Shown: in pieces, positions 1 through 22,547 of the stretch | How the letters are laid out: each line of letters starts with the position of its first letter | Position numbering within the stretch: position 1 is the first letter of the stretch | Origin: a virus | Strand: one strand, 5' to 3' | Virus record (IMG/VR): IMGVR_UViG_3300045988_137427 | Span: 1-22,547 of that record | DNA: 22,547 bases | The notes under the pieces: generated by a model | Database searches by the model: none | What the model was told of the DNA's origin: nothing | The model's input: only the letters and a program-made list of their open reading frames with translations | Translations under genes and position numbers: made by a program

Positions 1-75
1 ATTTTTTTTCGGAAGCAAAATATAAAAAGTCTACTTATATATAGACGAGAGCGAAGGAAGAATAGCTACCTTCCC
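1..75. repeat. Terminal direct repeat, copy 1 (identical to 22473..22547); circular-assembly overlap or terminal redundancy
   Basis: Bases 1-75 (ATTTTTTTTCGGAAGC...AATAGCTACCTTCCC) recur exactly as the last 75 bases of the window. Confidence 0.9.
24..40 (+). promoter_or_regulatory. Conserved motif AAAAAGTCTACTTATAT, copy 1 (duplicated at 22496..22512 by the terminal repeat)
   Basis: Near-identical to AAAAATCTACTTATA at 2121..2137 and 2404..2419. Lies about 115 nt upstream of the first gene and is followed by a GGAAG/CTTCC hairpin. No sigma-70 -35 hexamer at the correct spacing. Confidence 0.5.
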
Positions 76-155: not shown

Positions 156-1115
156 ATGAAATTTGATATTGAAAATCGTCTCAAAGACACCGCAATAGTA
201 AATCTAACTGATTTTGAAAACGCCATTGATTTATATGAAGATGGTGAAATCGAAAAGGCATTGGAACTTATGTTTGGATTGACAGTATTAGGATTTGGCG
301 GTGATTTTGAAGCAGAAGATAGAGAAGTGCGCCGTCTACTGCGCAATAGAGCTTATACAGTTGCTAAAAGTAATGAGACTTACTGTAATAAGGTTTAGTC
401 TAAAGAGGCGGGGCAAAGAGCTAAACTCCAATTAGATGATATTGCCGAAATGATGGCCAATGGAGCAACACAACAAATTATAGCGGATACTCTTTGCGTG
501 AGCCTCGATACTATCAAGTATAGAGTAAAAGTGATGAAAGAAAAGTTTCCGTTCCTTTACGCCGAAGGAGTAAAAAAGTGTAAAAAAGTTGGAGTTAGTG
601 TGAGTAATGATAATGATAATGATAATGATAATGAGAAAGAAAATGACAAAGAGAATAGCGCTTCATCATCCTCTTTTACAGAAAGTCAAGGGTGGGAGAC
701 AGTAGAAAAAATGAAAGAGCTCCATCCTTTTGATGCTGCAAATTCAGTAGAAACAAAAGCTGATTTGATGGCTTTCGTTATCGCCTACAAAGGAGAAAAC
801 TTTGCCACTTCGCGCGTAAATCAACAAATCAAAGATACAAAAGTTTCTCCAAAAGATTGCGCCCGCGCCTTGTATTATCTTGACGCAAAGGAAATGAAAG
901 GTAGATTTTGCAAAGGAATAGAGCCTACCCTCTATCTTTGCCTAAAAGATGAAAATATTGTTTCTGCTAACAACTACTTTGAAAAAGAGATTGCTCAAAA
1001 AGAAGCAATTATGCATAGTTTTCAAGTTGCAGAAGAAAACAAAAAAATTATCCGTGTGCCCATTCCTTCATCAAAGAAAAAAACCCCAACATACAACATT
1101 GATGAAATCAATTGA
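156..1115 (+). CDS. Putative regulatory/replication-associated protein with an HTH segment (DUF6291-like N-terminus, from memory); 1 in-frame TAG
   Basis: ATG 156 follows AAGGAAGGG. Track ORFs 105..398 and 450..1115 are both frame 0, separated only by TAG 396-398, with no other stop in 399-449. HTH-like GATQQIIADTLCVSLDTIKYRV. Stop is TGA. The fusion is less certain than for the structural genes. Confidence 0.55.
606..634 (+). repeat. Hexanucleotide tandem repeat (AATGAT) x ~4.8, encoding NDNDNDNDN
   Basis: aatgataatgataatgataatgataatga read directly; in frame within CDS 156..1115. Confidence 0.9.
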
Positions 1116-1136
1116 ACCATATAGGAGGTAAATATA

Positions 1137-1979
1137 ATGTATATTGTCGAAGCCACAAGCAGCGAAAACCGCACAACCCACGGTTCTATGGGTGATTAGA
1201 CAGGCCGCGAAATTTGCGTATCCAACTTCTACTCCTATCCTTGGGATGTAGTGCTCTACTGCAAGGATGATACCTTACGGCGCAAGGCCGCGCAGATAGC
1301 CCAAGAAATAGCTTCCAATCCTTCTTTTGGCTACTCTCAACCTAACCGCTGGACGGGCTACAACTCAATCGTAGCTAATGGTGGTAAAGTTGCGGGCGCG
1401 CAAGGAGATTTTGACTGTAGCTCCTTGGTTATCTCTTGTTATGTTCTTGCGGGGCTTGCTATCCCTACCGGCACAGGCTACACAGGAACTATAGAACAAA
1501 CCTTCTTATCTACCGGTAAATTTGAAGCTCTGCGCGGGCAGCACATCTTAGATTATATGCGCGGGGCTATTGGGTGTATTTATCTGAACACCGCCAATCA
1601 CACAGCAATAGGAATTACTGATGAAGCATTGCGCCCGCGCTACACAACTCCGAGTGCTGCGGCCTCCATCCCATCCATTGATATAAAAGACACTACCGCC
1701 GCGAATTGGGGAGGAAAAATAACCGTCCCCTTAGATACTTGCTCTGTGAAGTTGCCTATGCTTCAAAATGGTAGTGTTGGCCATTCGGTAGCAATGCTCC
1801 AAACTCTACTTCTGGCTAATGGGGGCTCGTTGCCCACTTGTGGCGCTGATGGGGAATATGGTAATGAGACTTCCAACGCTGTGCGCGCGCTACAACAGAG
1901 TAATGGGCTTGACGTTGACGGCATTGTTGGCGCGCAAACCTGGGCTTGTCTGCTTTGGGGTGGAAAGCTCCAATTGTAA
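1137..1979 (+). CDS. Endolysin: cysteine-peptidase-type peptidoglycan hydrolase plus C-terminal PG_binding_1-like domain; 1 in-frame TAG
   Basis: AGGAGG at 1124-1129 then ATG 1137. TAG 1197-1199 (codon 21) is in frame with track ORF 1251..1979. NlpC/P60-like Cys motif GDFDCSSLV and later NHTAIGI. C-terminal GADGEYGNETSNAVRALQQSNGLDVDGIVGAQTW is a typical peptidoglycan-binding repeat. Stop is TAA. Confidence 0.8.
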
Positions 1980-1993
1980 GTTTGGCTCACATT

Positions 1994-2039
1994 GCGCGGG
2001 CTCCATAGATTTTATGAATGGAATTTATCCAGCCCGCGC
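1994..2039 (+). other. Stem-loop after the endolysin gene (GCGCGGGCT ... AGCCCGCGC, with inner TCCAT/ATGGA)
   Basis: 9-bp perfect outer stem at 1994-2002 and 2031-2039. No adjacent T-run, so terminator function is uncertain. Confidence 0.4.
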
Positions 2040-2081
2040 CTTACAATCCAAAAATCAATTTCCAAAATTTATTTTTGAAAA

Positions 2082-2137
2082 TTTCAAAACCCGCACCAAT
2101 TTTTTCTAAAGTGTAGCCTAAAAAATCTACTTATAAG
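2082..2137 (+). promoter_or_regulatory. Repeated ~55-nt element, copy A (TTTCAAAACCCGCACCAA...CTAAA...AAAAATCTACTTATAAG)
   Basis: Aligns by eye with 2366..2420 (TTTCAACCCTGCACCAAA...CTAAA...AAAAATCTACTTATATCC). Preceded by the palindrome TTTTGAAAATTTCAAAA at 2073-2089. Confidence 0.55.
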
Positions 2138-2368
2138 TGGAAGGGAAAAGAGAACTTTGCCATTCAACTATACTTCCTTCCGCACCTCCTATATTTATCT
2201 ATCTATTTATGCCTAACTTCTTGCTCTGTTAGGCTTTACCCTAAAACTAATCCCTTTTGGGATTAGTTCAGGTTGGAGATACAAGAGAAACACATTCGTC
2301 TCCTGTCCATCTTTCTTTTTCTCCGCTCTTTGTCTCTCCAATCTGAACTAACCCCAAAAATTTTTTTT
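2138..2368 (+). ncRNA. Candidate structured, CU-rich non-coding RNA between the two repeated elements
   Basis: No start codon or RBS in the only open frame. Hairpins at 2139-2181 (GGAAGG/CCTTCC), 2211-2234 (GCCTAAC/GTTAGGC) and 2247-2266 (CTAATCCC/GGGATTAG). A long imperfect hairpin pairs 2259-2287 with 2326-2355, followed by A5T8. ACCTCCT at 2184-2190. Confidence 0.4.
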
Positions 2369-2420
2369 CAACCCTGCACCAAATTTATCTAAACCCTATA
2401 CCCAAAAATCTACTTATATC
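2366..2420 (+). promoter_or_regulatory. Repeated ~55-nt element, copy B; candidate late-operon promoter/regulator site upstream of nuclease-TerS-TerL
   Basis: Same core AAAAATCTACTTATAT at 2404-2419. Followed by the hairpin GAGGC..GCCTC and the RBS of the gene starting at 2456. Confidence 0.55.
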
Positions 2421-2455
2421 CAGAGGCAAAGGAGAAGCCTCAAGGAGACGAAAAA

Positions 2456-2899
2456 ATGACTAATTCAGCACTCATCGGAAAGCAAGGTGAAGCTCTATTC
2501 AAATAGGTAATGAGCGCCAGCTACATAGTTGAAGATGTATCCAACTGTAGCGCCTATTGGGACAAGGACATAGACTTCCTTCTCACTAACCCGCGCACCG
2601 GCAATACCCGTTCTTTTGAAGTAAAGAATGATTGCCGCATAGCGGAAACAGGAAACCTCTACCTTGAACTAACAAACGTCCATTCTAAAGGTGGGCTTGG
2701 TTGGTATCGCTTCACGCAAGCCGACTTCCTCGCCTACTGCGACGCCACTACCAGCACCATATACATAATCCCAATGGATTAGCTCCGCGCCAAGTTGAAA
2801 GATATGCAACGGCGCATAGCGTATTGCGGGAATGATAGTTCCGGCTGGCTTGTCAAGCTTTCTGAAATTCAAAACCATATCAATATAACAATCCTGTAA
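2456..2899 (+). CDS. PD-(D/E)XK-type (YraN-like) nuclease; 2 in-frame TAGs
   Basis: AAGGAGA then ATG 2456. TAG 2504-2506 (codon 17) joins it to track ORF 2510..2782. TAG 2780-2782 is followed by 38 more open codons to TAA 2897-2899. Motif GKQGEALF...DIDFLL...SFEVKND fits the D...E-x-K nuclease core. Confidence 0.6.
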
Positions 2900-2911
2900 G
2901 GAGGTGAGCTT

Positions 2912-3286
2912 ATGCCGAAAAGTATGAAAGACATTGCAGCAAGGCAAAATGCCTTTCTTGATGCCTATCTCGAAAACCCCACCTTGTCGATGAAAGCTCA
3001 CGCCGAGCGATTAGGTATAAATGTCCGAACCGTATATAATTGGAAAGACAACAACATAAACGGCTTTGCAGATAAACTCCAAGAGCGACTATCCCGCAAG
3101 TGGGAAGAGGCCAAACAAATGGCTTCCGAATAGATGTTTTCTCTTGCTCGTGAAGGAGACTTCAAAGCAGTAAAATACATCCTTGACTACCACGGATACG
3201 CGCCAGCGCAAAAAGTAGAGGCTAAAGTTGATGCTAAAACCGTGATAAATGTATGTATAGGAGACGAACCTACTAATGGAGATTGA
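2912..3286 (+). CDS. terS: Terminase small subunit; 1 in-frame TAG
   Basis: AGGAGGTG then ATG 2912. N-terminal HTH-like segment (LGINVRTVYNW). TAG 3131-3133, then the frame continues as MFSLAREGDFKAVKYILDYHGYAPAQK, a motif typical of small terminases. TGA 3284-3286 overlaps the TerL start. Confidence 0.7.
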
Positions 3287-4514
3287 GCTCAATCTTTCTA
3301 AGGCTCTTTTCTCTCCTAAGCTCTTTCCTTTACTTTTTGACTACTCCCACCGTTGGGAAGTCTACCTTGGTGGCGCGGGTTCTGGTAAGTCTTACTTTAT
3401 AACCCAAAAGCTAATTGTTCGGTGTTTGCGCGAACCTATCAAGGTTCTTGTGTGCCGCCGCTATGCTACAACTATTCGTAATTCTTGCTTTGCGCTTTTC
3501 AAAGAAATCCTATCCAAATGGAAGCTTATGGAGTATGTCAAAATACGAGAAACAGACTTCAACATACGCTTTCCTAATGGTTCAGAAATAGTATTTATTG
3601 GGCTTGATGATGAAACCAAACTGCTTTCTCTAACCAATATATCTACTATATTTATTGAAGAGGTTTATGAAGTCTCTAAAGAAGTAGTAGAACAGCTCAA
3701 TTTGCGTATGAGAGGTAAAGCCAAAAACCAACAAATCCTTATGGCTTTCAACCCCATATCTAAGCACCATTGGCTTTATGATTTTTGCGAAGTGAGCCCG
3801 CCGCAAAGCTTCTATTTTTCTAAAACCACCTATAAGGATAATCCTTTTCTTTCTCCTGCCTACATTCAATCTCTTGAAGAACTCATCCAGCGCAACCCCG
3901 CCAAAGCGCGCATATATACTCAAGGCTTATGGGGTGTGCCTTCCGAAGGGCTTGTCCTCACGAATTGGACAGCAGAACAATTTGACATTCACACTCTTCT
4001 TGAAGCTCGCCAATTAGAACACCGTTGCGGGATGGACTTAGGCTTCGTAGATAAAACCGCAATCATTGATAGTTGGTATGACGCGCCCGCGCGCACAATA
4101 TACATTACAAACGAATTTTACAAATCTGGTTGCCAGCTCTCTGAATTAGCGGATGCAATTACCTCTATGGGGCTTTCCAAATCGAAGCTTTGTGTAGATG
4201 CAGCAGAACCGCGCACAATCCAATTCTTTCGCATTCAAGGTATAAATGCTGTGCCTTGCGCGAAGGGTAAAGACAGCGGGAAAGCCGGGCTTATGTTTCT
4301 GCAAGATAACAAGCTCATTGTTTCTCCGTCTTGCGTGAACCTCATAACCGAGCTGGAAAACTTCTCATACATCAAATCCAAACAAACCGGAGAATACACC
4401 GACGATACCACCCACGAATGGAGCCACGCTATTGATGCTCTGCGTTATGGGTATTCTGATATATACACGAATAAGAAGCTAAAGACGCTTGATAAGAGCG
4501 TTTTAGGGCTGTAA
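3276..4514 (+). CDS. terL: Terminase large subunit (PBSX-like); TAG-free
   Basis: 412 aa uninterrupted. Walker A GGAGSGKS near the N-terminus and a C-terminal nuclease-type region (HAIDALRY). Positioned after terS. Confidence 0.9.
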   Translation: MEIELNLSKALFSPKLFPLLFDYSHRWEVYLGGAGSGKSYFITQKLIVRCLREPIKVLVCRRYATTIRNSCFALFKEILSKWKLMEYVKIRETDFNIRFPNGSEIVFIGLDDETKLLSLTNISTIFIEEVYEVSKEVVEQLNLRMRGKAKNQQILMAFNPISKHHWLYDFCEVSPPQSFYFSKTTYKDNPFLSPAYIQSLEELIQRNPAKARIYTQGLWGVPSEGLVLTNWTAEQFDIHTLLEARQLEHRCGMDLGFVDKTAIIDSWYDAPARTIYITNEFYKSGCQLSELADAITSMGLSKSKLCVDAAEPRTIQFFRIQGINAVPCAKGKDSGKAGLMFLQDNKLIVSPSCVNLITELENFSYIKSKQTGEYTDDTTHEWSHAIDALRYGYSDIYTNKKLKTLDKSVLGL

Positions 4515-4526
4515 GGAGGTAAACCA

Positions 4527-4829
4527 TTGGTAGATTATTTATATGACGTAATCAAAGCCGTAGCCGGTGAAGAATTGCAAATTGCGGCGGTAATTACTGA
4601 TGAGAATGGCGCGGACATTAGTGAGGGTTGTGTGCTTGTTCTGGCTTTTGGACAGCACGCAGAACCACACGCACAATTTGATGGAACATTTACTGCCTCC
4701 AATAAAGGAGGTTTTTGGAGCTTTGTGGTTCCTGCCGCGGCCACAAAGGGAGAACACAAACTTTGGTATAAGGTAATGAAGGATGGAGAGAGTTTGTCTT
4801 TCTATCGGCCTTTGTATTTGGAGGGTTGA
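4527..4829 (+). CDS. Small hypothetical protein, possibly Ig-like/beta-sandwich; TAG-free
   Basis: GGAGG at 4516-4520 then a TTG start at 4527. 100 aa with no recognisable catalytic motif. Confidence 0.5.
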   Translation: MVDYLYDVIKAVAGEELQIAAVITDENGADISEGCVLVLAFGQHAEPHAQFDGTFTASNKGGFWSFVVPAAATKGEHKLWYKVMKDGESLSFYRPLYLEG

Positions 4830-4832
4830 GTG

Positions 4833-5936
4833 ATGCCCGTTGTGCTGAAAGGCAAGAAAGATAATATTGAGATAAAGCCTTTATCAAATTCTATTGAACT
4901 AAAGCCTTCTTCAAGTTCTATTGAATTACAAGTGCCTGTGGGTTCTGGTGCGGTTAGTTCCGTGAACGGACAAACGGGTGATGTAGTTATTGATGTGCCT
5001 TCTAAGGTAAGTGAATTAGAGAATGATGTAGGCTACCTCACCGAGCACCAAAGTTTGGATACTCTCGCCACAAAAGAAGCTCTAAATAATGGGCTGGCCG
5101 CGAAACAAGATAAACTTACTGCGGGTGAAAATATCACCATCCAGAATAATGTGATTAGCGCGAGCGGTGGCGGTGGAAGTTCTTACACATTACCACAAGC
5201 CTCTTATTCAACACTTGGTGGGGTAAAAGTAGTTTCAAATACATCACCATATAATAATTCTGATATAGGTAGAATTACAATTTCTAATGATGGTGTGTTA
5301 TATATAAATGATGAGTTGGATGAATAGCCGAAATATGGCTCTAATGGAAAGTCATATGCTTTACTATTTATTGGAAAAGACATTGAAGGCGGGACTAATC
5401 CTCAACGCCGTGTTCCATATATCAGATAGCAAGGTTGGTATTATCCTCTTCCTTTTCGAGCTGGGACAGCTATAAATATTTCAGATGAAGGGATAATTTC
5501 TGTAGATACAGCGCAAGTCTCTGCTAATAATGGCGTTCCATCTGGGGGCGGCTATCCACAAATACTTATAAAGAATACTGTAAAAGACTATGATACTTCG
5601 TGGAGTTCGCTTCCAGATTTATTGAATTATTATGGTATGAGTAGCGGTAGCGGTAATTGGAACATTACAACATCCATATATGAAGGAAATTTATACAATG
5701 CCAAAGAGGTAGTAATTTTCTGGTAGGACAGTAATTATAACTACCATCAAACATATTTGAATGTTGGTAGTGATTATAACGGTAATAATGGATAGACTTG
5801 GGGAAGTTCAAGTTGGATGAATACTTCTATTTATCTTGATAGTTATGATGAATACAATGGCGCGTATATAACTTATGATGGTAATTTTGTTAGCACTTCC
5901 AACTGCTCAATCAATGCGATATGCTACAAATCCTAA
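4833..5936 (+). CDS. Fibre-like protein (SVNGQTGDV.. / SELENDVGYLT motifs); 4 in-frame TAGs
   Basis: Frame 0 is open from ATG 4833 (GTG 4830 is also possible) to TAA 5934-5936, checked codon by codon. The only interruptions are TAG 5325, 5427, 5724 and 5793. This explains the apparently ORF-free stretch 5328-5951 in the standard-code track. Confidence 0.7.
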
Positions 5937-5951
5937 CCGGAGGAAACCTAA

Positions 5952-6335
5952 ATGATAAAAGTAAACTATGACGCCACTACTGGCAAGGTTCTTTCCTTCG
6001 GCAAAGATACAGAACCCTATATTGAAATTACCGAAGCTGAACGGAAGCAACCTCTCCCAACAAAATACCACTACTATGCCGTAGTAGATGGAAAATTCAA
6101 AATTCTTTCGCGCGCACCTTCACCCGCAGAAACAAAAAACGATACTGCGCGCGCCCTACGTTCTCAAATTGCAACTCTGAAAGCTCAATTAGATGCTACT
6201 GATTATAAAGCTCTAAAGTTTATGGAGGGCTGGCTTACTGCTGACGAATACGCCGAGTGTAAAGCAAACCGCGCAGAGTGGCGCGCGCAAATAAACAAAT
6301 TAGAGGAGGAACTTGCTAATGTTCTTTCTGAATAA
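5952..6335 (+). CDS. Hypothetical protein, possibly a fibre assembly/chaperone-like protein; TAG-free
   Basis: GGAGG then ATG 5952. The C-terminal helical segment (ATLKAQLDATDYKALKFMEGWLTADEYAECKANRAEWRAQINKLEEE) resembles tail-fibre assembly proteins from memory. Confidence 0.5.
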   Translation: MIKVNYDATTGKVLSFGKDTEPYIEITEAERKQPLPTKYHYYAVVDGKFKILSRAPSPAETKNDTARALRSQIATLKAQLDATDYKALKFMEGWLTADEYAECKANRAEWRAQINKLEEELANVLSE

Positions 6336-7647
6336 GGATACAGAACTAACTCCCGCGCTTATCAATAAAATGATGAATTAGTTTATAGTTGCGGTTCGTC
6401 CTACGTTGCGCAATTACAAGAACTACTTCGACGGTAAGCAAGCTATTCTAAATAAGTCATATAACGATGCTTCTAAACCTTGTAATAAGGTTATCACAAA
6501 CTACTGTAGCGATATAGTGAGCTCCTATAACGGATACATTGCTTCTCCGGGCTATATCTCCTACAGTAGCGAAACTCCTATTGATGAGATTATGGAGTGT
6601 TTGAAATATAACGATTACCAAGACGAGGACAGCGATTTTCTAAATGATGCTCTTGTATATGGTGTGGCCGCGGAACTTATGTATATAGATAGTGATGGAA
6701 AAGTGCGTTTCCGTCTTATCAATCCGCTCAACTGTTTTGGTGTGTATGATGATAGTTTGAGTTAGGATTTACTCTACTTTGTAAGATGGTATAAGGCTAA
6801 CGAGTGGGATGAAAGCAACACTTACTTTCTTGATGCCTACAGTAATATTACTGTGCGCCATTATAAAATGAGTGGAGAGAATGGTGGACTTGTTTTTCTT
6901 TCCGAAGAGCCCCATTACTTCAATCAATGCCCGGCCAATATCTTCTATTTGGATAAAGATGAGCGCAATATTTTTGATTGTATTTTGAGCCTTCAAGATG
7001 CATACAACGAAATCCTCTCTGGTGAGATTGATGATTATGATGCTTTTTGTGATGCCTACCTTTCCATTACCGGATGCGACGCCGAGACGGATGATATTAT
7101 TTCTATGAAAGAAAACCGCGTCTTGGTTCTTCCGGAGGGAGCTGCCGCGGAATGGCTTACCAAAAACGCGAATGATGCACAAGTTGAAAATATCCTCAAG
7201 CGCATTCACGATAGTATCTACCGCATTGCAAAATGCCCCGACTTTTCCAGTGAGACATTTGTAGGCGGGGTAAGCTCTGGCGTGGCTATCCGCTACCGCC
7301 TTACCGGTTGTGAGACGAAGGCCGCAGCCATTGAGAGTAATATGAAGAAAGCGCTCCAACGCCGTATTGAGCTTATTGCGGGCGTCGCTTCTCTAAAGCT
7401 TGGCGAAGAGGTTTTCCGCGATATTTCTATTACATTTACGCGCAATATTCCTTCTGATAATAGCGACATTCTCAACACAGTCAAGGGACTACAAGGCGTA
7501 GTAAGTGATAAAACATTACTTGGTATGATACCTCAAGTGAGTGATGTAGATAAGGAATTAGAGGCTATTACCGAAGAGAAACAGAAGAAGATGGAACTCT
7601 ATTCTTTCGCGCCAACCAATACACCTGATGATGGTGATGAGGAATGA
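6319..7647 (+). CDS. Portal protein (SPP1 gp6-like); 2 in-frame TAGs
   Basis: GAGGAGGA then ATG 6319. TAG 6379-6381 (codon 21) and TAG 6763-6765 join track ORFs 6406..6765 and 6853..7647, all in frame 1. N-terminus ...YKNYFDGKQAI... is typical of portals. Acidic C-terminus. Stop is TGA. Confidence 0.85.
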
Positions 7648-8900
7648 GCCAAACAGAAGAATATTGGATTGAGCGTATACGCCGGGCGCAAGAAAAGCAA
7701 GCCACGCAATCTATAACCGAGCTTCAAAAAGAGTTGAATATTTACTACTCTAAAGCTATGCGACGGCTCATAAAACAATTTGAAGCTACCTATGAAAAGC
7801 TACTGCGTCAAACTGCGGAGGGTATAACGCCTTCTGTAGCGGATTTATATAAATTAGATACCTACTGGAAGCTTCAAGGCGCTTTACGCTTAGAGCTTCA
7901 AAAACTTGGCGATAAGCAAGAAGTATTGTTCTCTAAGAAATTTGAAGAAGCCTATGAACATATTTGGAAGTCTATTTCTCTCCCATCACAATCAGCATTC
8001 ACCCAACCAAGTATTGAGAATGCTAACCAACTTATCAATTCTATTTGGTGTGCAGATGGAAAGAATTGGAGCGCCCGTGTTTGGGGCAACATTGATAAGC
8101 TCCAAGAAAGCTTGAATGATGCTCTTGTTGATTGCGTGATTACCGGCAAAAAAACAACCGAACTAAAACATATGCTTATGGAAGAGTTTGGTGTTGGATA
8201 CAATCGCGCGGACACCATAGCCCGCACAGAAATAGCCCACATTCAGACGCAAACAGCGCGAGAACGCTATAAAAACTATGGCATTTAGAAAGTGAAAATT
8301 GTGGCTGATAAATCAAGTAGGACGTGCCCGCAATGCGCCGAGCTGGATGGGAAGGAATATCCCATTGATGCTACTATGCCCGTTCCCGTTCATCCGCGTT
8401 GCCGGTGTTGTATTGTGCCCGTAATGGATTTGACTTCACAGAAAGAAGATAGTAGACTACAAGAAAAGCCGAAAGAAAAACCACGGCGCACAAGAGCAAT
8501 GTCTGTTCCGTCTCATAGCAAAACAATCCGCGTAGAACCGCCTGATATTGTCCAGCGGGCTATTGATAAGGTGAAGGAGCTATAGAAGAGTGGAGAACCG
8601 CTGCACTTCTATAAACGAACAAAGAGACATTAGAACCACGCGGAAGAACTCACCGGCCTAACCGGAGATGAAGCGTGGCAGAAGTATGAAGAAATGGCCG
8701 ATGCCTTTATGAAAAAAGACATTGACGGAAAGGATATGGAGGGCTTTATGAGTAGTATGGATTGGCTCTTCAAGTTTGAACATTCTTCCGGGCGAATAGG
8801 TATATTGAGCGATAAAGGAACAATATCAACTCTATTTGTGCCCGATAAGCAATCACCAGAAGAATATTGGAAGGAACAAATAAATGAATACGGAAAATAA
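7644..8900 (+). CDS. Head morphogenesis protein (MuF / SPP1 gp7 family) with an extra ~105-aa C-terminal domain; 3 in-frame TAGs
   Basis: ATG 7644 overlaps the portal stop. Frame 0 is continuous through TAG 8286, 8583 and 8631 to TAA 8898-8900, joining track ORFs 7644..8288, 8292..8585 and 8694..8900. MuF signature RTCPQCAELDGKEYPID...HPRCRCCIVP. No RBS before ATG 8694. Confidence 0.75.
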
Positions 8901-9096
8901 TAAGAAAAACCCTGCTATTCGTCCCTGCCCGGTTTGCGGAAAGTATATCTTCAAAGAACCTTATGAAGATTGCCCTGTTTGTGGGTGGGAGAATGATGTT
9001 GTCCAAGAGAAATGGCTAACAGTTGGCGGGTGTGCAAATGTAATGTCCCTTGAGGAATGCCGTAAGGCATATGCCGAGGGAAAAGAATTTTTCTAA
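8884..9096 (+). CDS. CPCC-family cysteine-rich (zinc-ribbon-like) protein; TAG-free
   Basis: CPVCGKY...CPVCGWENDVVQ...GGCANVMSLEECRKAY matches the remembered CPCC family pattern. Overlaps the 3' end of the MuF gene by 17 nt. Confidence 0.7.
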   Translation: MNTENNKKNPAIRPCPVCGKYIFKEPYEDCPVCGWENDVVQEKWLTVGGCANVMSLEECRKAYAEGKEFF

Positions 9097-9106
9097 GTTG
9101 TTTTCT

Positions 9107-9135
9107 GGAAGAAACGGGATTTTCCCGTTTCTTCC
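9107..9135 (+). terminator. Hairpin GGAAGAAACGGG-ATTTT-CCCGTTTCTTCC after the MuF/CPCC genes
   Basis: 12-bp perfect stem read directly, followed by TTCTATAT, a weak T-tract. Confidence 0.6.
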
Positions 9136-9230
9136 TTCTATATATGTCGCTTTGGGGGTTCAGACACTAAACGAACAATCAAATAATGGGGTTGCGGGCT
9201 TCCCGCAAAATCATAACGGAGGAATACATA

Positions 9231-9812
9231 ATGGATAACGAAAATAAAGGTATGGAAAATAACCAGTAGGGGCAGGGCGCGGAAAACAATCCGAGCACTG
9301 AACCAGAGGCTAAGACATATACCCAAGAAGAGGTTCTCCGCCTCTTACAGAGTGAGAGCGACAAGCGAGTAAATCAAGCTCTCGCAAAGCAAAAGAAAGA
9401 ATACGAGAAGAAGCTTTCCTTGACTTCTCTTGATGAGCAACAGCGTAAAGACGCGGAAGCTCAAATGCGTATTGAAGAGCTCCAAAGCCAGCTCGCGCAA
9501 TTCCAGATTGAAAAGAATAAGAGTGAGTTGAAGTCTGTTCTTTCAAGCAGAGGATTGAGCGCGGAATTTGCCGATATTATTTCTATCGGTGAGGATATTA
9601 CGGAAGCTCAAACAAATATTGATACATTGGATAGACTTTTCAAGGCGGCGGTAAAGGCCGAGGTAGAAAAGCGACTTGCGGGAAATACTCCCAAGGGCAA
9701 CTCTTCTTCTAACGGCGAGATTACAAAAGATGTCGTAAAGAAAATGTCTATGGCTGAATTGAATAAGTTGGCTATTGAACAGCCAGAAATATTTTCCAAG
9801 TTTTTTGGATAA
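9231..9812 (+). CDS. Scaffolding protein (DUF4355-like); 1 in-frame TAG
   Basis: GGAGGA then ATG 9231. TAG 9267-9269 (codon 13) is in frame with track ORF 9420..9812. Charged coiled-coil composition and a position immediately upstream of the major capsid gene. Confidence 0.65.
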
Positions 9813-20166: not shown

Positions 20167-21138
20167 TTATCTTACCTTTTTGGTTCTCTCATATTTCTTT
20201 TTGGCTTTGTCTAATGGGTTGAACTCGTTTATATCCTCACTCAAATCATTACCATAGAGCTTGACATAGTTCTTCGTCATATCAAGCGTAGAATGTCCAA
20301 GCAATTTCTGTAGCTTGAAGGGGGAACCATCGGCTAAAATCCATTCCCGCGCGAAAGTATGCCGGATACCGTGAAGGGAAGTTTTATCTACCCCGCGCTT
20401 ATGGGAGTAAGTAGCGTATGCTTTGCGGATAGCGTTTCCACTAAGTTTTTCACCCGAAATACTACAAAACAGATAATCACTTGCGCGGGCGTCGCTTCTC
20501 CACATTTTGATGTATTCGCGCAAAACAGAAGCAAGAGCATTTGAGATTGGAATTACTTGAGGCTTTTTGTTCTTAGTGTGGGTGTAGACAATACGCTTGC
20601 TTTTCAAGTCTACTGTGCCTACAGCCAAATTACAGATAGTATCTTCTCTCGCGCCAGTAGCATAGATGAAGTTTACAATAGCCCACATACGCCATTCAAC
20701 AAATTCATCTTTGTGAATGGGCTTGCGCAAGAGCAAATCCATTTCTTCTTTAGAGTAGTCTTTGGGAAGCTCTTCCTGTGTTTTGGTGAGCTGAACTTTT
20801 AGCTTTCCGGTGATATATCCTTTATTCTTACACCAGTTTACGAACGTCCGCATATCTCTTAGATAATGGTTGATAGACTGCGGGCGAATACCATCACTCT
20901 TTAGCGCGGCCATCCATTCAAAGATAGTATCTTCTGTGAGTTCAGAACAAAGAAAAGTATCTCCATCAATTTCACCTTCAAAGGACTGGAGAAAGCGCTG
21001 ATAAGACTTCTGATAGCTTTCTACTGTTGCCGCTGAACGCTGGAGCGCTTCTTTCTCAATAATGAACTTGTTGAAAGCGTCCTCCAAGCAAACGCCGACA
21101 GGATTAGAAGCTCGCCGAATTTTTTTAGGAACACCCAT
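20167..21138 (-). CDS. int: Tyrosine recombinase / phage integrase; TAG-free
   Basis: 323 aa uninterrupted. C-terminal catalytic pattern HGIRHTFAREW...LLGHSTLDMTKNYVKLY (R..H-x-x-R..H..Y). N-terminal SAM-like core-binding region. Stop is TAA. Confidence 0.9.
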   Translation of the reverse strand: MGVPKKIRRASNPVGVCLEDAFNKFIIEKEALQRSAATVESYQKSYQRFLQSFEGEIDGDTFLCSELTEDTIFEWMAALKSDGIRPQSINHYLRDMRTFVNWCKNKGYITGKLKVQLTKTQEELPKDYSKEEMDLLLRKPIHKDEFVEWRMWAIVNFIYATGAREDTICNLAVGTVDLKSKRIVYTHTKNKKPQVIPISNALASVLREYIKMWRSDARASDYLFCSISGEKLSGNAIRKAYATYSHKRGVDKTSLHGIRHTFAREWILADGSPFKLQKLLGHSTLDMTKNYVKLYGNDLSEDINEFNPLDKAKKKYERTKKVR

Positions 21139-22472: not shown

Positions 22473-22547
22473 ATTTTTTTTCGGAAGCAAAATATAAAAA
22501 GTCTACTTATATATAGACGAGAGCGAAGGAAGAATAGCTACCTTCCC
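22473..22547. repeat. Terminal direct repeat, copy 2 (identical to 1..75)
   Basis: Exact 75-nt match to the window start. Confidence 0.9.

What the first reader, a model, noticed from the sequence alone, without database searches (positions are those of the whole stretch)
7644..9096. MuF head-morphogenesis protein with a TAG-gated C-terminal extra domain, followed by an overlapping CPCC zinc-ribbon gene (possible MuF toxin/immunity pair)
Frame 0 runs from 7644 to 8900 through three TAGs.
- TAG 8286 lies inside the conserved MuF core, before the RTCPQCAELDG...HPRCRC motif.
- TAG 8583 and 8631 lie at the junction with an additional ~105-aa domain: ..HFYKRTKRH[TAG]NHAEELTGLTGDEAWQKYEEMADAFM...GILSDKGTISTLFVP...

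From established work (Jamet et al. 2017 on MuF polymorphic toxins; Iyer et al. 2017 on PBECR nuclease domains fused to MuF), MuF proteins of temperate Firmicutes phages often carry C-terminal toxin or nuclease domains followed by a small immunity gene. The H..K/R..H..H..E..G start and the ..T.F.P.. ending resemble what I recall of BECR-type domains, but this is weak.

The 70-aa CPCC protein (8884..9096) overlaps the 3' end, where an immunity gene would sit. Amber codons at the domain junction could set the ratio of short MuF to long MuF-effector.
Basis: inference. Interest (0 to 1): 0.65.

Follow-up and report, generated by a model that had tools for sequence, protein, structure and literature searches.

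The report
Phage head protein toxin with antidote

Summary
The sequence observation is correct. Frame 7644-8900 is open through TAGs at 8286, 8583 and 8631, and a 70-aa CPCC gene (8884-9096) overlaps its end.

The "TAG-gated" reading is not supported. The window is a complete ~22.5-kb circular temperate phage with genome-wide TAG recoding: 34 in-frame TAGs in 22 late genes, and none of those genes ends in TAG. All three MuF TAGs align with Gln in uninterrupted homologs.

The toxin/immunity reading is strongly supported:
- **Toxin domain:** the C-terminal ~115 aa model as a BECR fold (pLDDT 95). They match the toxin chain of the E. coli CDI toxin-immunity complex PDB 8EY4 (family profile E=1.8e-13; top Foldseek hit), followed by colicin D tRNase structures.
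- **Immunity protein:** the CPCC protein matches the immunity chain of the same complex (E=8e-11).
- **Other carriers:** the domain also ends CdiA, PAAR-Rhs, PT-TG, minor-capsid-2 and portal-NUDIX proteins. A CPCC gene lies directly downstream in every context examined.
- **Sister phages:** 93-97% identical relatives have swapped the whole cassette (8543-9139) or lack it.

No Pfam family, PBECR included, covers the toxin domain. Verdict: new member of a known kind (MuF polymorphic toxins). RNase activity and virion delivery are inferred.

The parts
7644..8900 (+). MuF-toxin gene, 418 codons, read with TAG = Gln
   Evidence: One open frame through three TAGs. Phage_Mu_F PF04233 at aa 157-257. 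phrog_115 minor head protein at aa 3-269, E=1e-52. Uninterrupted 398-435-aa homologs cover 97-100% of it.
7644..8420 (+). MuF (SPP1 gp7-type) head-morphogenesis core, aa 1-259, including CxxC...HPxCRCC
   Evidence: Short relatives (P0002, 265 aa, 96% identical) end just after this point.
8286..8288 (+). TAG codon 215, in the MuF core
   Evidence: Aligns with Q in P0001 and most homologs (YGIQEVEI).
8421..8558 (+). Low-complexity K/P/E/R-rich linker, aa 260-305
   Evidence: Variable in length and unalignable among homologs. The recombination breakpoint with sister phage L001 lies at 8542/8543.
8559..8897 (+). C-terminal toxin domain, aa 306-418: colicin-D-like BECR fold, homologous to the CdiA-CT of PDB 8EY4
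   Evidence: AF2 model of the 73%-identical P0004 tail has pLDDT 95.3. Foldseek: 8ey4_A then colicin D. HMM match to 8ey4_A: E=5.7e-3 with the subfamily profile and 1.8e-13 with the family profile. 741 relatives, and the domain is C-terminal in every hit listed.
8583..8585 (+). TAG codon 314
   Evidence: Aligns with Q (ELQQSG) in homologs.
8628..8639 (+). H329-Q330(TAG 8631)-N331-H332: conserved His motif on the helix; H332 is the predicted catalytic residue
   Evidence: The second His is invariant and the first nearly invariant across the family. It aligns with H11..H15 of 8ey4_A. It lies in model helix 22-32.
8817..8843 (+). GTISTLFVP: strand 4 carrying the conserved Thr (T396) and Pro
   Evidence: T and P are nearly invariant. 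Strand E88-93 of the model. Matches T.FKP of 8ey4_A.
8884..9096 (+). CPCC zinc-ribbon gene (70 aa), predicted cognate immunity protein; its start overlaps the MuF stop by 17 nt, with AAGGAA upstream
   Evidence: PF14206 E=1.4e-13. 8ey4 chain I (immunity) E=8e-11 and 8ey3_A E=7e-11. Invariant C15, P16, C18, C30, C33, W35. A CPCC gene lies downstream of the toxin domain in every context examined.
9107..9135 (+). 13-bp-stem hairpin followed by a T-rich tail; terminator-like, last element of the cassette
   Evidence: It lies inside the segment that is not shared with L001.
8543..9139 (+). Exchangeable toxin-immunity cassette: tail domain, CPCC gene and hairpin
   Evidence: blastn against L001: homology of 93.4% runs up to 8542 and resumes at 97% from 9140. 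The segment in between is unrelated.

Best explanation
Window 7644-9139 is a MuF-type polymorphic toxin locus in a complete, ~22.5-kb, temperate, TAG-recoded phage of gut Oscillospiraceae.

The gene 7644-8900 encodes one 418-aa protein, with its three TAGs read most likely as glutamine. It has three parts:
- an SPP1-gp7/MuF minor head protein core (aa 1-259);
- a disordered linker (aa 260-305);
- a C-terminal ~115-aa BECR-fold domain related to the colicin D tRNase and, more closely, to the toxin domain of the E. coli O32:H37 CdiA (PDB 8EY4 chain A).

The overlapping gene 8884-9096 encodes a four-cysteine CPCC zinc-ribbon protein homologous to the immunity chain of that same complex.

Proposed mechanism:
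1. Late in infection the MuF-toxin is made together with its translationally coupled immunity protein, which binds and blocks it in the producing cell.
2. A few copies of MuF-toxin are built into the capsid at the portal and enter the next cell with the DNA.
3. There the domain acts as a metal-independent endoribonuclease, most likely on tRNA. H332 on the helix would be the general base and T396 on strand 4 would assist.
4. Cells that already express the CPCC protein are protected.

What is shown: the homology of both proteins, the fold, the conserved His/Thr signature, the strict toxin-CPCC gene pairing across secretion systems, the cassette exchange, and the genome-wide recoding.

What is inferred: RNase activity and its substrate, physical neutralisation, virion packaging and injection, and the biological role.
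For: Recoding:
- + strand frames tile only when TAG is read through.
- 34 TAGs in 22 late genes, none used as a terminator.
- Gln at MuF 215/314/330 and MCP 85 in standard-code relatives.
- The 97.5%-identical L009 has the same three TAGs.
- The integrase is TAG-free.
- This matches the 'Topaz' TAG-recoded ~24-kb Oscillospiraceae prophages of bioRxiv 10.1101/2021.08.26.457843.

Toxin:
- AF2 model pLDDT 95.3, with two helices and a 4-stranded sheet.
- Foldseek rank 1 is 8ey4_A (TM 0.73 on target, prob 1.0). Ranks 2-6 are colicin D tRNase (1tfo, 1tfk, 1v74, 5znm).
- HMM E=1.8e-13 to 8ey4_A.
- 741 relatives; the domain is at the extreme C-terminus in all 150 hits listed.
- Carriers include TPS/Fil_haemagg CdiA (4,520 aa), PAAR-RHS, PT-TG, Phage_min_cap2 and MuF.
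- The BECR active-site pattern, His in the helix plus S/T in strand 4, is the one PMC5512222 gives for colicin D-like BECR domains. Colicin D His611 is the general base (PMC9990079).

Immunity:
- CPCC protein to 8ey4_I, E=8e-11.
- A PF14206 gene lies immediately downstream of CdiA (L012), Rhs (L013), min_cap2 (L014), PT-TG (L016), MuFs (L005, L019, plus an uncalled ORF in L017) and FP_Brigit portal-NUDIX-toxin.

Polymorphism:
- L001 (93-97% identical flanks) has a different tail and a different small gene.
- L002-L004 (96% identical core) have neither.
Against: - No enzymatic or toxicity data exist for this domain or, in the literature I could search, for the 8EY4 toxin.
- TM-scores to colicin D are modest (0.47-0.58), and no sequence model of Colicin_D or PBECR matches.
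- The equivalence of H332 with colicin D His611 rests on motif position and secondary structure. No 3D superposition was done.
- The structure model is of a 73%-identical homolog, because the window protein with TAG read as Gln could not be submitted.
- Phage Mu's own MuF carries an inactive BECR-type domain (PMC5512222), so fusion alone does not prove activity.
- Packaging and injection are extrapolated from SPP1 gp7 biology.
- No suppressor tRNA is found in the complete genome, so how TAG is decoded is unknown, and Gln rests on alignment only.
Confidence: 0.8

Rival explanations
1. Injected anti-defence or host-takeover effector instead of an inter-bacterial toxin. The same MuF-BECR fusion is delivered with the DNA, but it cleaves host defence RNAs or mRNAs (for example crRNA, or RNAs of abortive-infection systems) to help the incoming phage. 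The CPCC protein only protects the producer cell during assembly.
For: PMC5512222 proposes exactly this for BECR domains fused to MuF and portal proteins. FP_Brigit carries the domain in a polyvalent portal-NUDIX-toxin protein, an architecture typical of injected effectors.
Against: The same domain with the same CPCC partner is used by CdiA, PAAR-Rhs and PT-TG proteins. Those are inter-bacterial killing systems whose toxins hit essential targets. Cassette swapping between near-identical phages is the pattern of toxin/immunity diversification. The two roles are not mutually exclusive.
Confidence: 0.25
2. The TAGs are leaky stops placed to gate the extra domain, so that the phage makes mostly short MuF and a minority of long MuF-effector.
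For: Two of the three TAGs (8583, 8631) lie near the start of the tail. If suppression is incomplete, any recoded gene will yield some truncated product.
Against: TAG density in MuF (3 in 418 codons) equals the genome-wide late-gene rate (34 in 5,700). The first TAG is inside the MuF core. Gln occupies all three positions in homologs. Standard-code relatives (L005, L007, L017) encode the same fusion with no stops. Sister phages with a short MuF achieve that by lacking the cassette, not by termination.
Confidence: 0.05
3. A degenerate, non-catalytic BECR domain that serves as an RNA/DNA-binding or structural appendage of the head protein, with the CPCC protein as an assembly chaperone.
For: PMC5512222 states that phage Mu MuF carries an inactive PBECR domain and predicts it to bind RNA. 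No activity data exist here.
Against: The His...His motif, the strand-4 Thr and the other signature residues are all intact in the window protein and invariant or nearly so across the family, including the CdiA and Rhs versions. An inactive domain would not need a strictly co-inherited immunity gene, nor co-swapping with it.
Confidence: 0.07
4. Standard-code reading: three separate small genes or pseudogene fragments (7644-8288, 8292-8585, 8694-8900).
For: This is what a table-11 ORF call returns.
Against: The Pfam, PHROG and homolog alignments run straight across the TAGs. The same fragmentation would affect 16 of the 22 late genes. The TAGs are conserved in place in L009.
Confidence: 0.01

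Closest known systems
MuF polymorphic toxins of temperate phages (Jamet et al. 2017, PMC5576092; Apk2 examples, PMC12226406)
   Same: N-terminal MuF domain in the packaging module (terminase, portal, MuF). A variable C-terminal toxin domain that is shared with other polymorphic-toxin families. A small ORF of under 150 aa directly downstream. A temperate Bacillota phage from the gut. Short and long MuF variants among relatives.
   Different: [quoted passage not shown] The immunity partner is a CPCC zinc ribbon. The gene sits in a TAG-recoded genome. No experimental data exist for it.
CdiA-CT/CdiI complex of E. coli O32:H37 (PDB 8EY4; immunity protein alone, 8EY3)
   Same: Both partners are homologous: tail to chain A (E=1.8e-13 with the family profile; top Foldseek hit, TM 0.73) and CPCC protein to chain I (E=8e-11). 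The gene order is the same, toxin followed by immunity.
   Different: The delivery module is a phage head protein, whereas CdiA is a type V secreted filament. The host is a Gram-positive-type Clostridia member. Identity is only about 21%. I found no publication describing the activity of 8EY4.
Colicin D tRNase domain with ImmD (PDB 1V74, 1TFO, 1TFK, 5ZNM)
   Same: BECR fold: a helix packed on a 4-stranded antiparallel sheet, with a conserved His on the helix where colicin D has the general base His611. The domain is the C-terminal killing domain of a modular toxin.
   Different: No sequence-level match to Pfam Colicin_D (PF11429). TM-scores are only about 0.5. ImmD is not a CPCC zinc ribbon. 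The substrate, tRNA-Arg for colicin D, is unknown here.
PBECR domains fused to MuF or portal proteins (Iyer et al. 2017, PMC5512222)
   Same: Same fold class, the same His plus Ser/Thr configuration, and the same fusion partners (MuF, and portal in FP_Brigit). Injection with the DNA is predicted in both cases.
   Different: No Pfam family of any kind, PBECR included, matches the 46 family members scanned. This family is shared with CdiA, Rhs and PT-TG toxins and always has an immunity gene, which that paper does not describe for PBECR.
TAG-recoded (genetic code 15) temperate phages: 'Topaz' prophages of Oscillospiraceae (Borges et al., bioRxiv 10.1101/2021.08.26.457843; code 15 proteomic validation, PMC9523058)
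   Same: A genome of about 22-24 kb, in-frame TAGs in most structural genes, a TAG-free integrase, and relatives in Oscillospiraceae (Faecousia) bins.
   Different: Clade membership was not tested by phylogeny. No suppressor tRNA was detected in this complete genome.

Membership tests
MuF polymorphic toxin (Jamet 2017) | N-terminal MuF/SPP1 gp7 domain | tested here: met
   PF04233 E=2.5e-12 at aa 157-257. phrog_115 E=1e-52 at aa 3-269.
MuF polymorphic toxin (Jamet 2017) | C-terminal extension carrying a toxin domain that also occurs in other polymorphic-toxin families | tested here: met
   The domain is found at the C-terminus of TPS/Fil_haemagg CdiA, PAAR-RHS and PT-TG proteins, and it matches the 8EY4 toxin chain.
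MuF polymorphic toxin (Jamet 2017) | Small ORF (under 150 aa) immediately downstream as candidate immunity gene | tested here: met
   The 70-aa ORF 8884-9096 overlaps the toxin gene's stop and is homologous to a crystallised immunity protein.
MuF polymorphic toxin (Jamet 2017) | Encoded by a temperate phage, within the DNA-packaging/head module | tested here: met
   Terminase_3, SPP1_portal, MuF and DUF4355 scaffold in order, and a Phage_integrase on the minus strand. Circular ~22.5-kb genome.
MuF polymorphic toxin (Jamet 2017) | C-terminal domain and immunity gene vary together between close relatives | tested here: met
   L001 has a different tail and a different small gene between flanks 93-97% identical to the window. 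L002-L004 have neither.
MuF polymorphic toxin (Jamet 2017) | Toxicity of the C-terminal domain, neutralised by the cognate immunity protein | not testable with these tools
   Needs expression assays.
BECR-fold RNase, colicin D-like | [quoted passage not shown] | tested here: met
   AF2 model of the 73%-identical P0004 tail: H22-32, H36-52, E60-64, E70-74, E79-83, E88-93; pLDDT 95.3. The definition comes from PMC5512222.
BECR-fold RNase, colicin D-like | Structural similarity to solved colicin D tRNase | tested here: met
   Foldseek ranks 2-6 are 1tfo, 1tfk, 1v74 and 5znm, with prob 0.95-1.0, E 6e-3 to 6e-2 and TM 0.47-0.58. These values are moderate, not high.
BECR-fold RNase, colicin D-like | Conserved His in the helix and Ser/Thr in strand 4 | tested here: met
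   H332 is invariant and H329 and T396 are nearly invariant. They are placed in the helix and in strand 4 by the model. Superposition on His611 was not done.
BECR-fold RNase, colicin D-like | Match to Pfam Colicin_D (PF11429) | tested here: not met
   No such hit for the window tail or for 46 family members at E up to 1-10.
BECR-fold RNase, colicin D-like | Metal-independent endoribonuclease activity on tRNA | not testable with these tools
   Needs biochemistry.
PBECR (phage BECR) families of Iyer 2017 | Sequence membership in one of the PBECR families (from my own knowledge, Pfam holds PBECR1-5 models) | tested here: not met
   No Pfam-A family of any kind matched above noise, and NCBIfam gave nothing either. 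The fold and active-site pattern are the same, so it works like a PBECR but is not filed as one.
8EY4-type CDI toxin / CPCC immunity pair | Toxin homologous in sequence and fold to 8EY4 chain A | tested here: met
   hmmsearch E=5.7e-3 (subfamily profile A2) and 1.8e-13 (family profile A5) over almost the whole domain. Foldseek rank 1, TM 0.73.
8EY4-type CDI toxin / CPCC immunity pair | Immunity protein is a Cys_rich_CPCC (PF14206) zinc ribbon homologous to 8EY4 chain I | tested here: met
   phmmer E=8e-11 to 8ey4_I and 7e-11 to 8ey3_A. The four Cys are invariant.
8EY4-type CDI toxin / CPCC immunity pair | Toxin and CPCC genes adjacent, toxin first | tested here: met
   All nine independent lineages or contexts examined, plus FP_Brigit.
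8EY4-type CDI toxin / CPCC immunity pair | Physical toxin-immunity complex | not testable with these tools
   No multimer prediction was available. Needs pull-down, ITC or a co-structure.
Genetic code 15 (TAG = Gln) phage | In-frame TAGs in many genes, with TAG not used as a terminator | tested here: met
   34 TAGs in 22 late genes. All 22 end in TAA or TGA.
Genetic code 15 (TAG = Gln) phage | TAG positions align with Gln in standard-code homologs | tested here: met
   Gln at all four conserved columns (MuF 215, 314, 330; MCP 85). The other four TAG sites with standard-code matches lie in variable columns and are uninformative.
Genetic code 15 (TAG = Gln) phage | Phage-encoded suppressor tRNA(CUA) | tested here: not met
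   None in the complete genome by ARAGORN, Rfam or relaxed ARAGORN. Borges et al. detected one in only 40% of TAG-recoded genomes, so this feature is not obligatory.
Genetic code 15 (TAG = Gln) phage | Peptide evidence for Gln at TAG | not testable with these tools
   Needs proteomics.

The most novel reading that the evidence does not exclude
A genetic-code interlock on a toxin-immunity pair. The toxin domain lies downstream of three in-frame TAGs, one of them inside its catalytic His motif. It therefore cannot be made while the cell decodes by the standard code, as in lysogeny or early infection. The TAG-free CPCC gene can be translated in either state. Lysogens would then hold standing immunity to the virion-delivered RNase of kin phages while never risking self-intoxication, and the exchangeable cassette (8543-9139) would define phage 'kin groups'.

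The evidence does not exclude this. CPCC genes are TAG-free in all three independent recoded lineages, and the integrase is TAG-free as well. But CPCC proteins contain only 1-3 Gln, so the absence of TAG carries no statistical weight. The only promoter-like site upstream of the CPCC gene (8777-8806) is at chance level.
Probability: 0.2. Interest if true: 0.7.

Novelty: new member of a known kind. Interest (0 to 1): 0.45.

Why it matters
- **Annotation of two orphan families.** A widespread C-terminal toxin domain with no Pfam, PHROG or NCBIfam model (741 cluster representatives) gets a concrete annotation, as does the 'domain of unknown function'-like CPCC family PF14206. They form a cognate toxin-immunity pair used by type V (CdiA), type VI (PAAR-Rhs) and PT-TG systems and by three kinds of phage head protein.
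- **More MuF toxins may be recognisable.** It shows that some of the 'MuF C-terminal extensions without known domain' are genuine toxins.
- **A candidate experimental system.** It supplies a natural three-state comparison among near-identical phages (cassette A, cassette B, no cassette) that could be used to test what capsid-delivered toxins do for temperate phages of abundant gut Clostridia.
- **A caution for annotators.** In-frame TAGs in such phages should be assessed genome-wide before they are read as gene-specific regulation.

Tried and rejected
- **Sequence families for the tail.** Pfam, PHROGs and NCBIfam on the tail alone and on 46 family members gave no family, PBECR and Colicin_D included.
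- **Phage collection searches.** blastn of 7000-9800 against the phage collection gave no match. tblastn of the tail against the same collection gave no match.
- **Stand-alone tail proteins (P0121-P0144).** I rejected them as independent genes. They come from short contigs, run into the HPRCRCC core, or carry junk leaders, so they are gene-call fragments.
- **Structure of the window's own tail.** I used the 73%-identical P0004 tail instead.
- **Locus search with the broad alignment.** The search for related loci with A3 failed for lack of a conserved block. The narrower A4 gave only 5 loci.
- **Sister phage's alternative tail B.** No homologs were found, and the single-sequence AF2 model had pLDDT 51. 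It was unusable, so I did not fold-search it.
- **Literature.** Searches for 8EY4, CPCC plus immunity, Cys_rich_CPCC, PF14206, and CPCC plus BECR found nothing relevant. Two papers were not held.
- **TAG-free immunity gene as a designed feature.** Not significant: P(0 TAG in 70 codons)=0.66, and each CPCC protein has only 1-3 Gln.
- **Internal promoter for the CPCC gene.** The scan was not above the shuffle expectation.
- **Suppressor tRNA.** Not found by three methods, and none in the related loci held.


Full report
**1. The observation**

The sequence is as described. The frame that starts at ATG 7644 runs to TAA 8898-8900 and is interrupted only by TAG at 8286, 8583 and 8631 (codons 215, 314, 330). 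A 70-codon ORF (8884-9096) overlaps its last 17 nt. Pfam places Phage_Mu_F at aa 157-257, straight across the first TAG (E=2.5e-12), and calls the small ORF Cys_rich_CPCC, PF14206 (E=1.4e-13). PHROGs covers aa 3-~300 as minor head protein / head morphogenesis (phrog_115, E=1e-52). It finds nothing for the last ~115 aa.

**2. The TAGs are a genome-wide sense codon, not a gate on this gene**

- A table-11 ORF call shreds the whole + strand. With TAG read through, long frames tile it end to end.
- These frames encode terminase (Terminase_3), an SPP1-type portal, MuF, a DUF4355 scaffold, the capsid protein, a tape measure and tail genes. An endolysin lies on the same strand and a tyrosine integrase on the minus strand.
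- In 22 + strand genes I counted 34 in-frame TAGs in 5,700 codons. None of those genes ends in TAG. MuF's three TAGs compare with about 2.5 expected.
- In an alignment with 24 homologs, many of them uninterrupted 398-435-aa proteins, the three TAGs fall on Gln in most sequences: YGI-Q-EVEI, EL-Q-QSG and RH-Q-xHAEELTGL.
- I extended this to other genes using standard-code relatives (L005, L007, L017). Gln sits at all four conserved columns, including capsid codon 85. The other four TAG sites with standard-code matches lie in variable columns.
- L009, a 97.5%-identical relative, keeps the same three TAGs.
- The window has an exact 75-nt terminal overlap, so it is a complete circular genome of about 22,472 bp. 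The integrase has no TAG. The only genome-collection relatives are on contigs binned to Faecousia, family Oscillospiraceae.
- This matches the ~24-kb TAG-recoded 'Topaz' prophages of Oscillospiraceae, whose integrase is among the few TAG-free genes (bioRxiv 10.1101/2021.08.26.457843). TAG read as Gln has been validated by proteomics in other gut phages (PMC9523058).
- One gap remains. No suppressor tRNA is detectable in this complete genome. The cited study found one in only 40% of TAG-recoded genomes.

The isoform-ratio idea also fails on anatomy. Termination at the first TAG would break the MuF core. Relatives that have a short MuF simply lack the downstream DNA.

**3. The C-terminal ~115 residues are a toxin domain**

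- A word-indexed search with the full protein returned many ~405-aa proteins covering 97-100% of the query, so the tail is a conserved fused domain.
- The tail-only hits of 109-190 aa are gene-call fragments.
- A profile of 19 tails matched one solved structure, 8ey4_A, a 'PT-VENN domain-containing protein' (E=5.7e-3), across the whole domain and with every conserved motif shared. With a broader family profile that includes the window's own fragment, the match rose to E=1.8e-13.
- AlphaFold2 on the 73%-identical P0004 tail with an 18-sequence alignment gave pLDDT 95.3 and pTM 0.87. The model has helices at 2-11, 22-32 and 36-52, four strands, and two C-terminal helices.
- Foldseek against the PDB ranked 8ey4_A first. 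That entry is titled 'Contact-dependent growth inhibition toxin-immunity protein complex from E. coli O32:H37' (TM 0.73 on the target). Next came four colicin D tRNase entries (1tfo, 1tfk, 1v74, 5znm; prob 0.95-1.0; TM about 0.5), and RelE appeared lower down.
- This is the BECR fold. The family's invariant His (window H332), with a nearly invariant H329 preceding it, sits on the helix. A nearly invariant Thr (T396 in GTISTLFVP) sits on strand 4. Iyer et al. give exactly this configuration for colicin-D-like BECR RNases (PMC5512222). In colicin D the helix His611 is the general base, and the enzyme cuts tRNA-Arg between nucleotides 38 and 39 (PMC9990079).
- The equivalence of H332 with His611 is inferred. 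I did not superpose the structures.

**4. It is a shuffled polymorphic-toxin module**

An exhaustive profile search of 1.84 billion cluster representatives found 741 proteins at E<=1e-3, of which 130 were at E<=1e-10. In all 150 hits listed, the domain is at the extreme C-terminus of proteins from about 70 to 4,520 aa. The carriers include:
- a TPS/filamentous-haemagglutinin CdiA (4,520 aa);
- a PAAR-RHS protein (1,506 aa);
- a PT-TG pre-toxin protein;
- Phage_min_cap2 proteins;
- many MuF proteins.

None of 46 members scanned hits any Pfam-A family, whether PBECR, Colicin_D or another, and NCBIfam has nothing either. Membership of the named PBECR families is not met.

**5. The CPCC gene is the cognate immunity gene**

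- The window's CPCC protein matches chain I of the same 8EY4 complex (E=8e-11) and 8EY3, the immunity protein alone (E=7e-11). Two adjacent window genes are thus homologous to the two chains of one crystallised toxin-immunity complex.
- Gene neighbourhoods agree. A PF14206 gene lies immediately downstream of each of the following:
  - the CdiA, which has CdiB upstream (L012);
  - the Rhs, with VgrG and DcrB upstream (L013);
  - the minor-capsid-2 protein (L014/L015);
  - the PT-TG protein (L016);
  - the divergent recoded MuF (L019);
  - the standard-code MuF (L005-L008);
  - L009-L011.
- In the common prophage L017/L018, a gap left by the gene caller holds a CPCC ORF.
- The only CPCC hit in the curated phage collection is in Faecalibacterium phage FP_Brigit. 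There it overlaps the end of an 828-aa portal-NUDIX protein whose C-terminus belongs to the same toxin family (hhalign 98.3%, E=2.4e-14).
- All eight aligned CPCC proteins keep CPxC...CxxCxW.

**6. A natural exchange experiment**

- L001 is a sister phage on a 22.6-kb contig that is also TAG-recoded. It is 93.4% identical to the window up to 8542 and 97% identical from 9140 onward. In between it has an unrelated C-terminal domain and an unrelated 58-aa Cys-rich gene.
- L002-L004 have a 96%-identical MuF core that stops at 265 aa, and the scaffold gene follows directly.
- The unit 8543-9139 therefore behaves as one exchangeable cassette. It holds the tail, the CPCC gene and a 13-bp-stem terminator-like hairpin at 9107-9135. 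This is the hallmark of polymorphic toxin systems.

**7. Mechanism, and what is inferred**

- **Shown:** homology of both partners, the fold, the catalytic-type signature, strict pairing, cassette exchange, and recoding.
- **Inferred from established MuF/SPP1 gp7 biology and from Jamet 2017 and Iyer 2017:** the fusion is packaged in the capsid and enters the next cell with the DNA. The domain cleaves RNA, probably tRNA. The co-translated CPCC protein protects the producer, and possibly lysogens too.
- **Open question:** I cannot tell whether the role is inter-bacterial or kin competition, a lysogeny decision, or anti-defence.
- **A more novel possibility:** the code difference itself may keep the toxin silent in lysogens while the TAG-free immunity gene stays translatable. 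This is not excluded, but it has no statistical support.

**8. Verdict**

This is a real and well-supported toxin-immunity locus of the known MuF polymorphic-toxin kind. Its toxin family is absent from the domain libraries searched, and I found no paper in the searchable library that describes its CPCC partner as an immunity family. The PDB deposit titles are the only record I found. The amber 'gating' is ordinary genome-wide code-15-type recoding.

Noticed in passing
window 1-75 and 22473-22547: An exact 75-nt terminal direct overlap shows that the window is a complete circular assembly of about 22,472 bp. Even so, no tRNA, and so no TAG suppressor, is found by ARAGORN, Rfam or relaxed ARAGORN. 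How this phage decodes TAG is unexplained.
   Followed up: partly
window 20167-21138 (-): The tyrosine integrase has no TAG and an opposite Gln codon preference (CAG 8, CAA 1) compared with the late genes (CAA 164, CAG 44, TAG 34). This suggests host-like, standard-code usage for the lysogeny gene.
   Followed up: partly
window 4527-6335: Three genes sit between terminase and portal, among them a 368-aa Ser/Gly/Asn-rich protein with 4 TAGs and no Pfam hit. The sister phage L001 has them too. They are absent from the standard-code relative L005, where the portal directly follows the terminase.
   Followed up: no
L001 4900-5401: The alternative cassette of the sister phage holds an unrelated ~100-aa MuF C-terminus (with its own TAGs) and a 58-aa Cys-rich gene (C..C...CxxC). 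No homologs or families were found, and the single-sequence AF2 model was unusable (pLDDT 51). It may be a second, unknown toxin-immunity pair.
   Followed up: partly
L020 (Faecalibacterium phage FP_Brigit, MG711465) 1013-3671: A cultured phage encodes an 828-aa portal-NUDIX-toxin polyvalent protein. Its C-terminus belongs to the same toxin family (hhalign 98.3%), and an overlapping 62-aa CPCC gene follows. It could serve as an experimental system for this pair.
   Followed up: yes
proteins P0127, P0132, P0141 (contigs up to 178 kb): These 151-153-aa proteins carry a complete toxin domain behind an unrelated ~50-aa leader, and they occur on many large contigs. They may be orphan or displaced toxin modules in bacterial chromosomes.
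   Followed up: no
L010 and L011 (contigs binned to Faecousia sp. MAGs): Relatives of the MuF-toxin gene here contain 6-10 in-frame stops under table 11. These contigs are therefore TAG-recoded phages or prophages too, and they may be mis-binned phage contigs.
   Followed up: partly
window 1980-2450: A gene-poor stretch of about 470 bp follows the endolysin gene. The only open frame there translates to low-complexity sequence, and no RNA family was detected.
   Followed up: no
window 634-803 (+): A sub-threshold Rfam T-box leader match (23.9 bits against a gathering score of 93; E=0.1) lies inside a coding frame. It is most likely chance.
   Followed up: no
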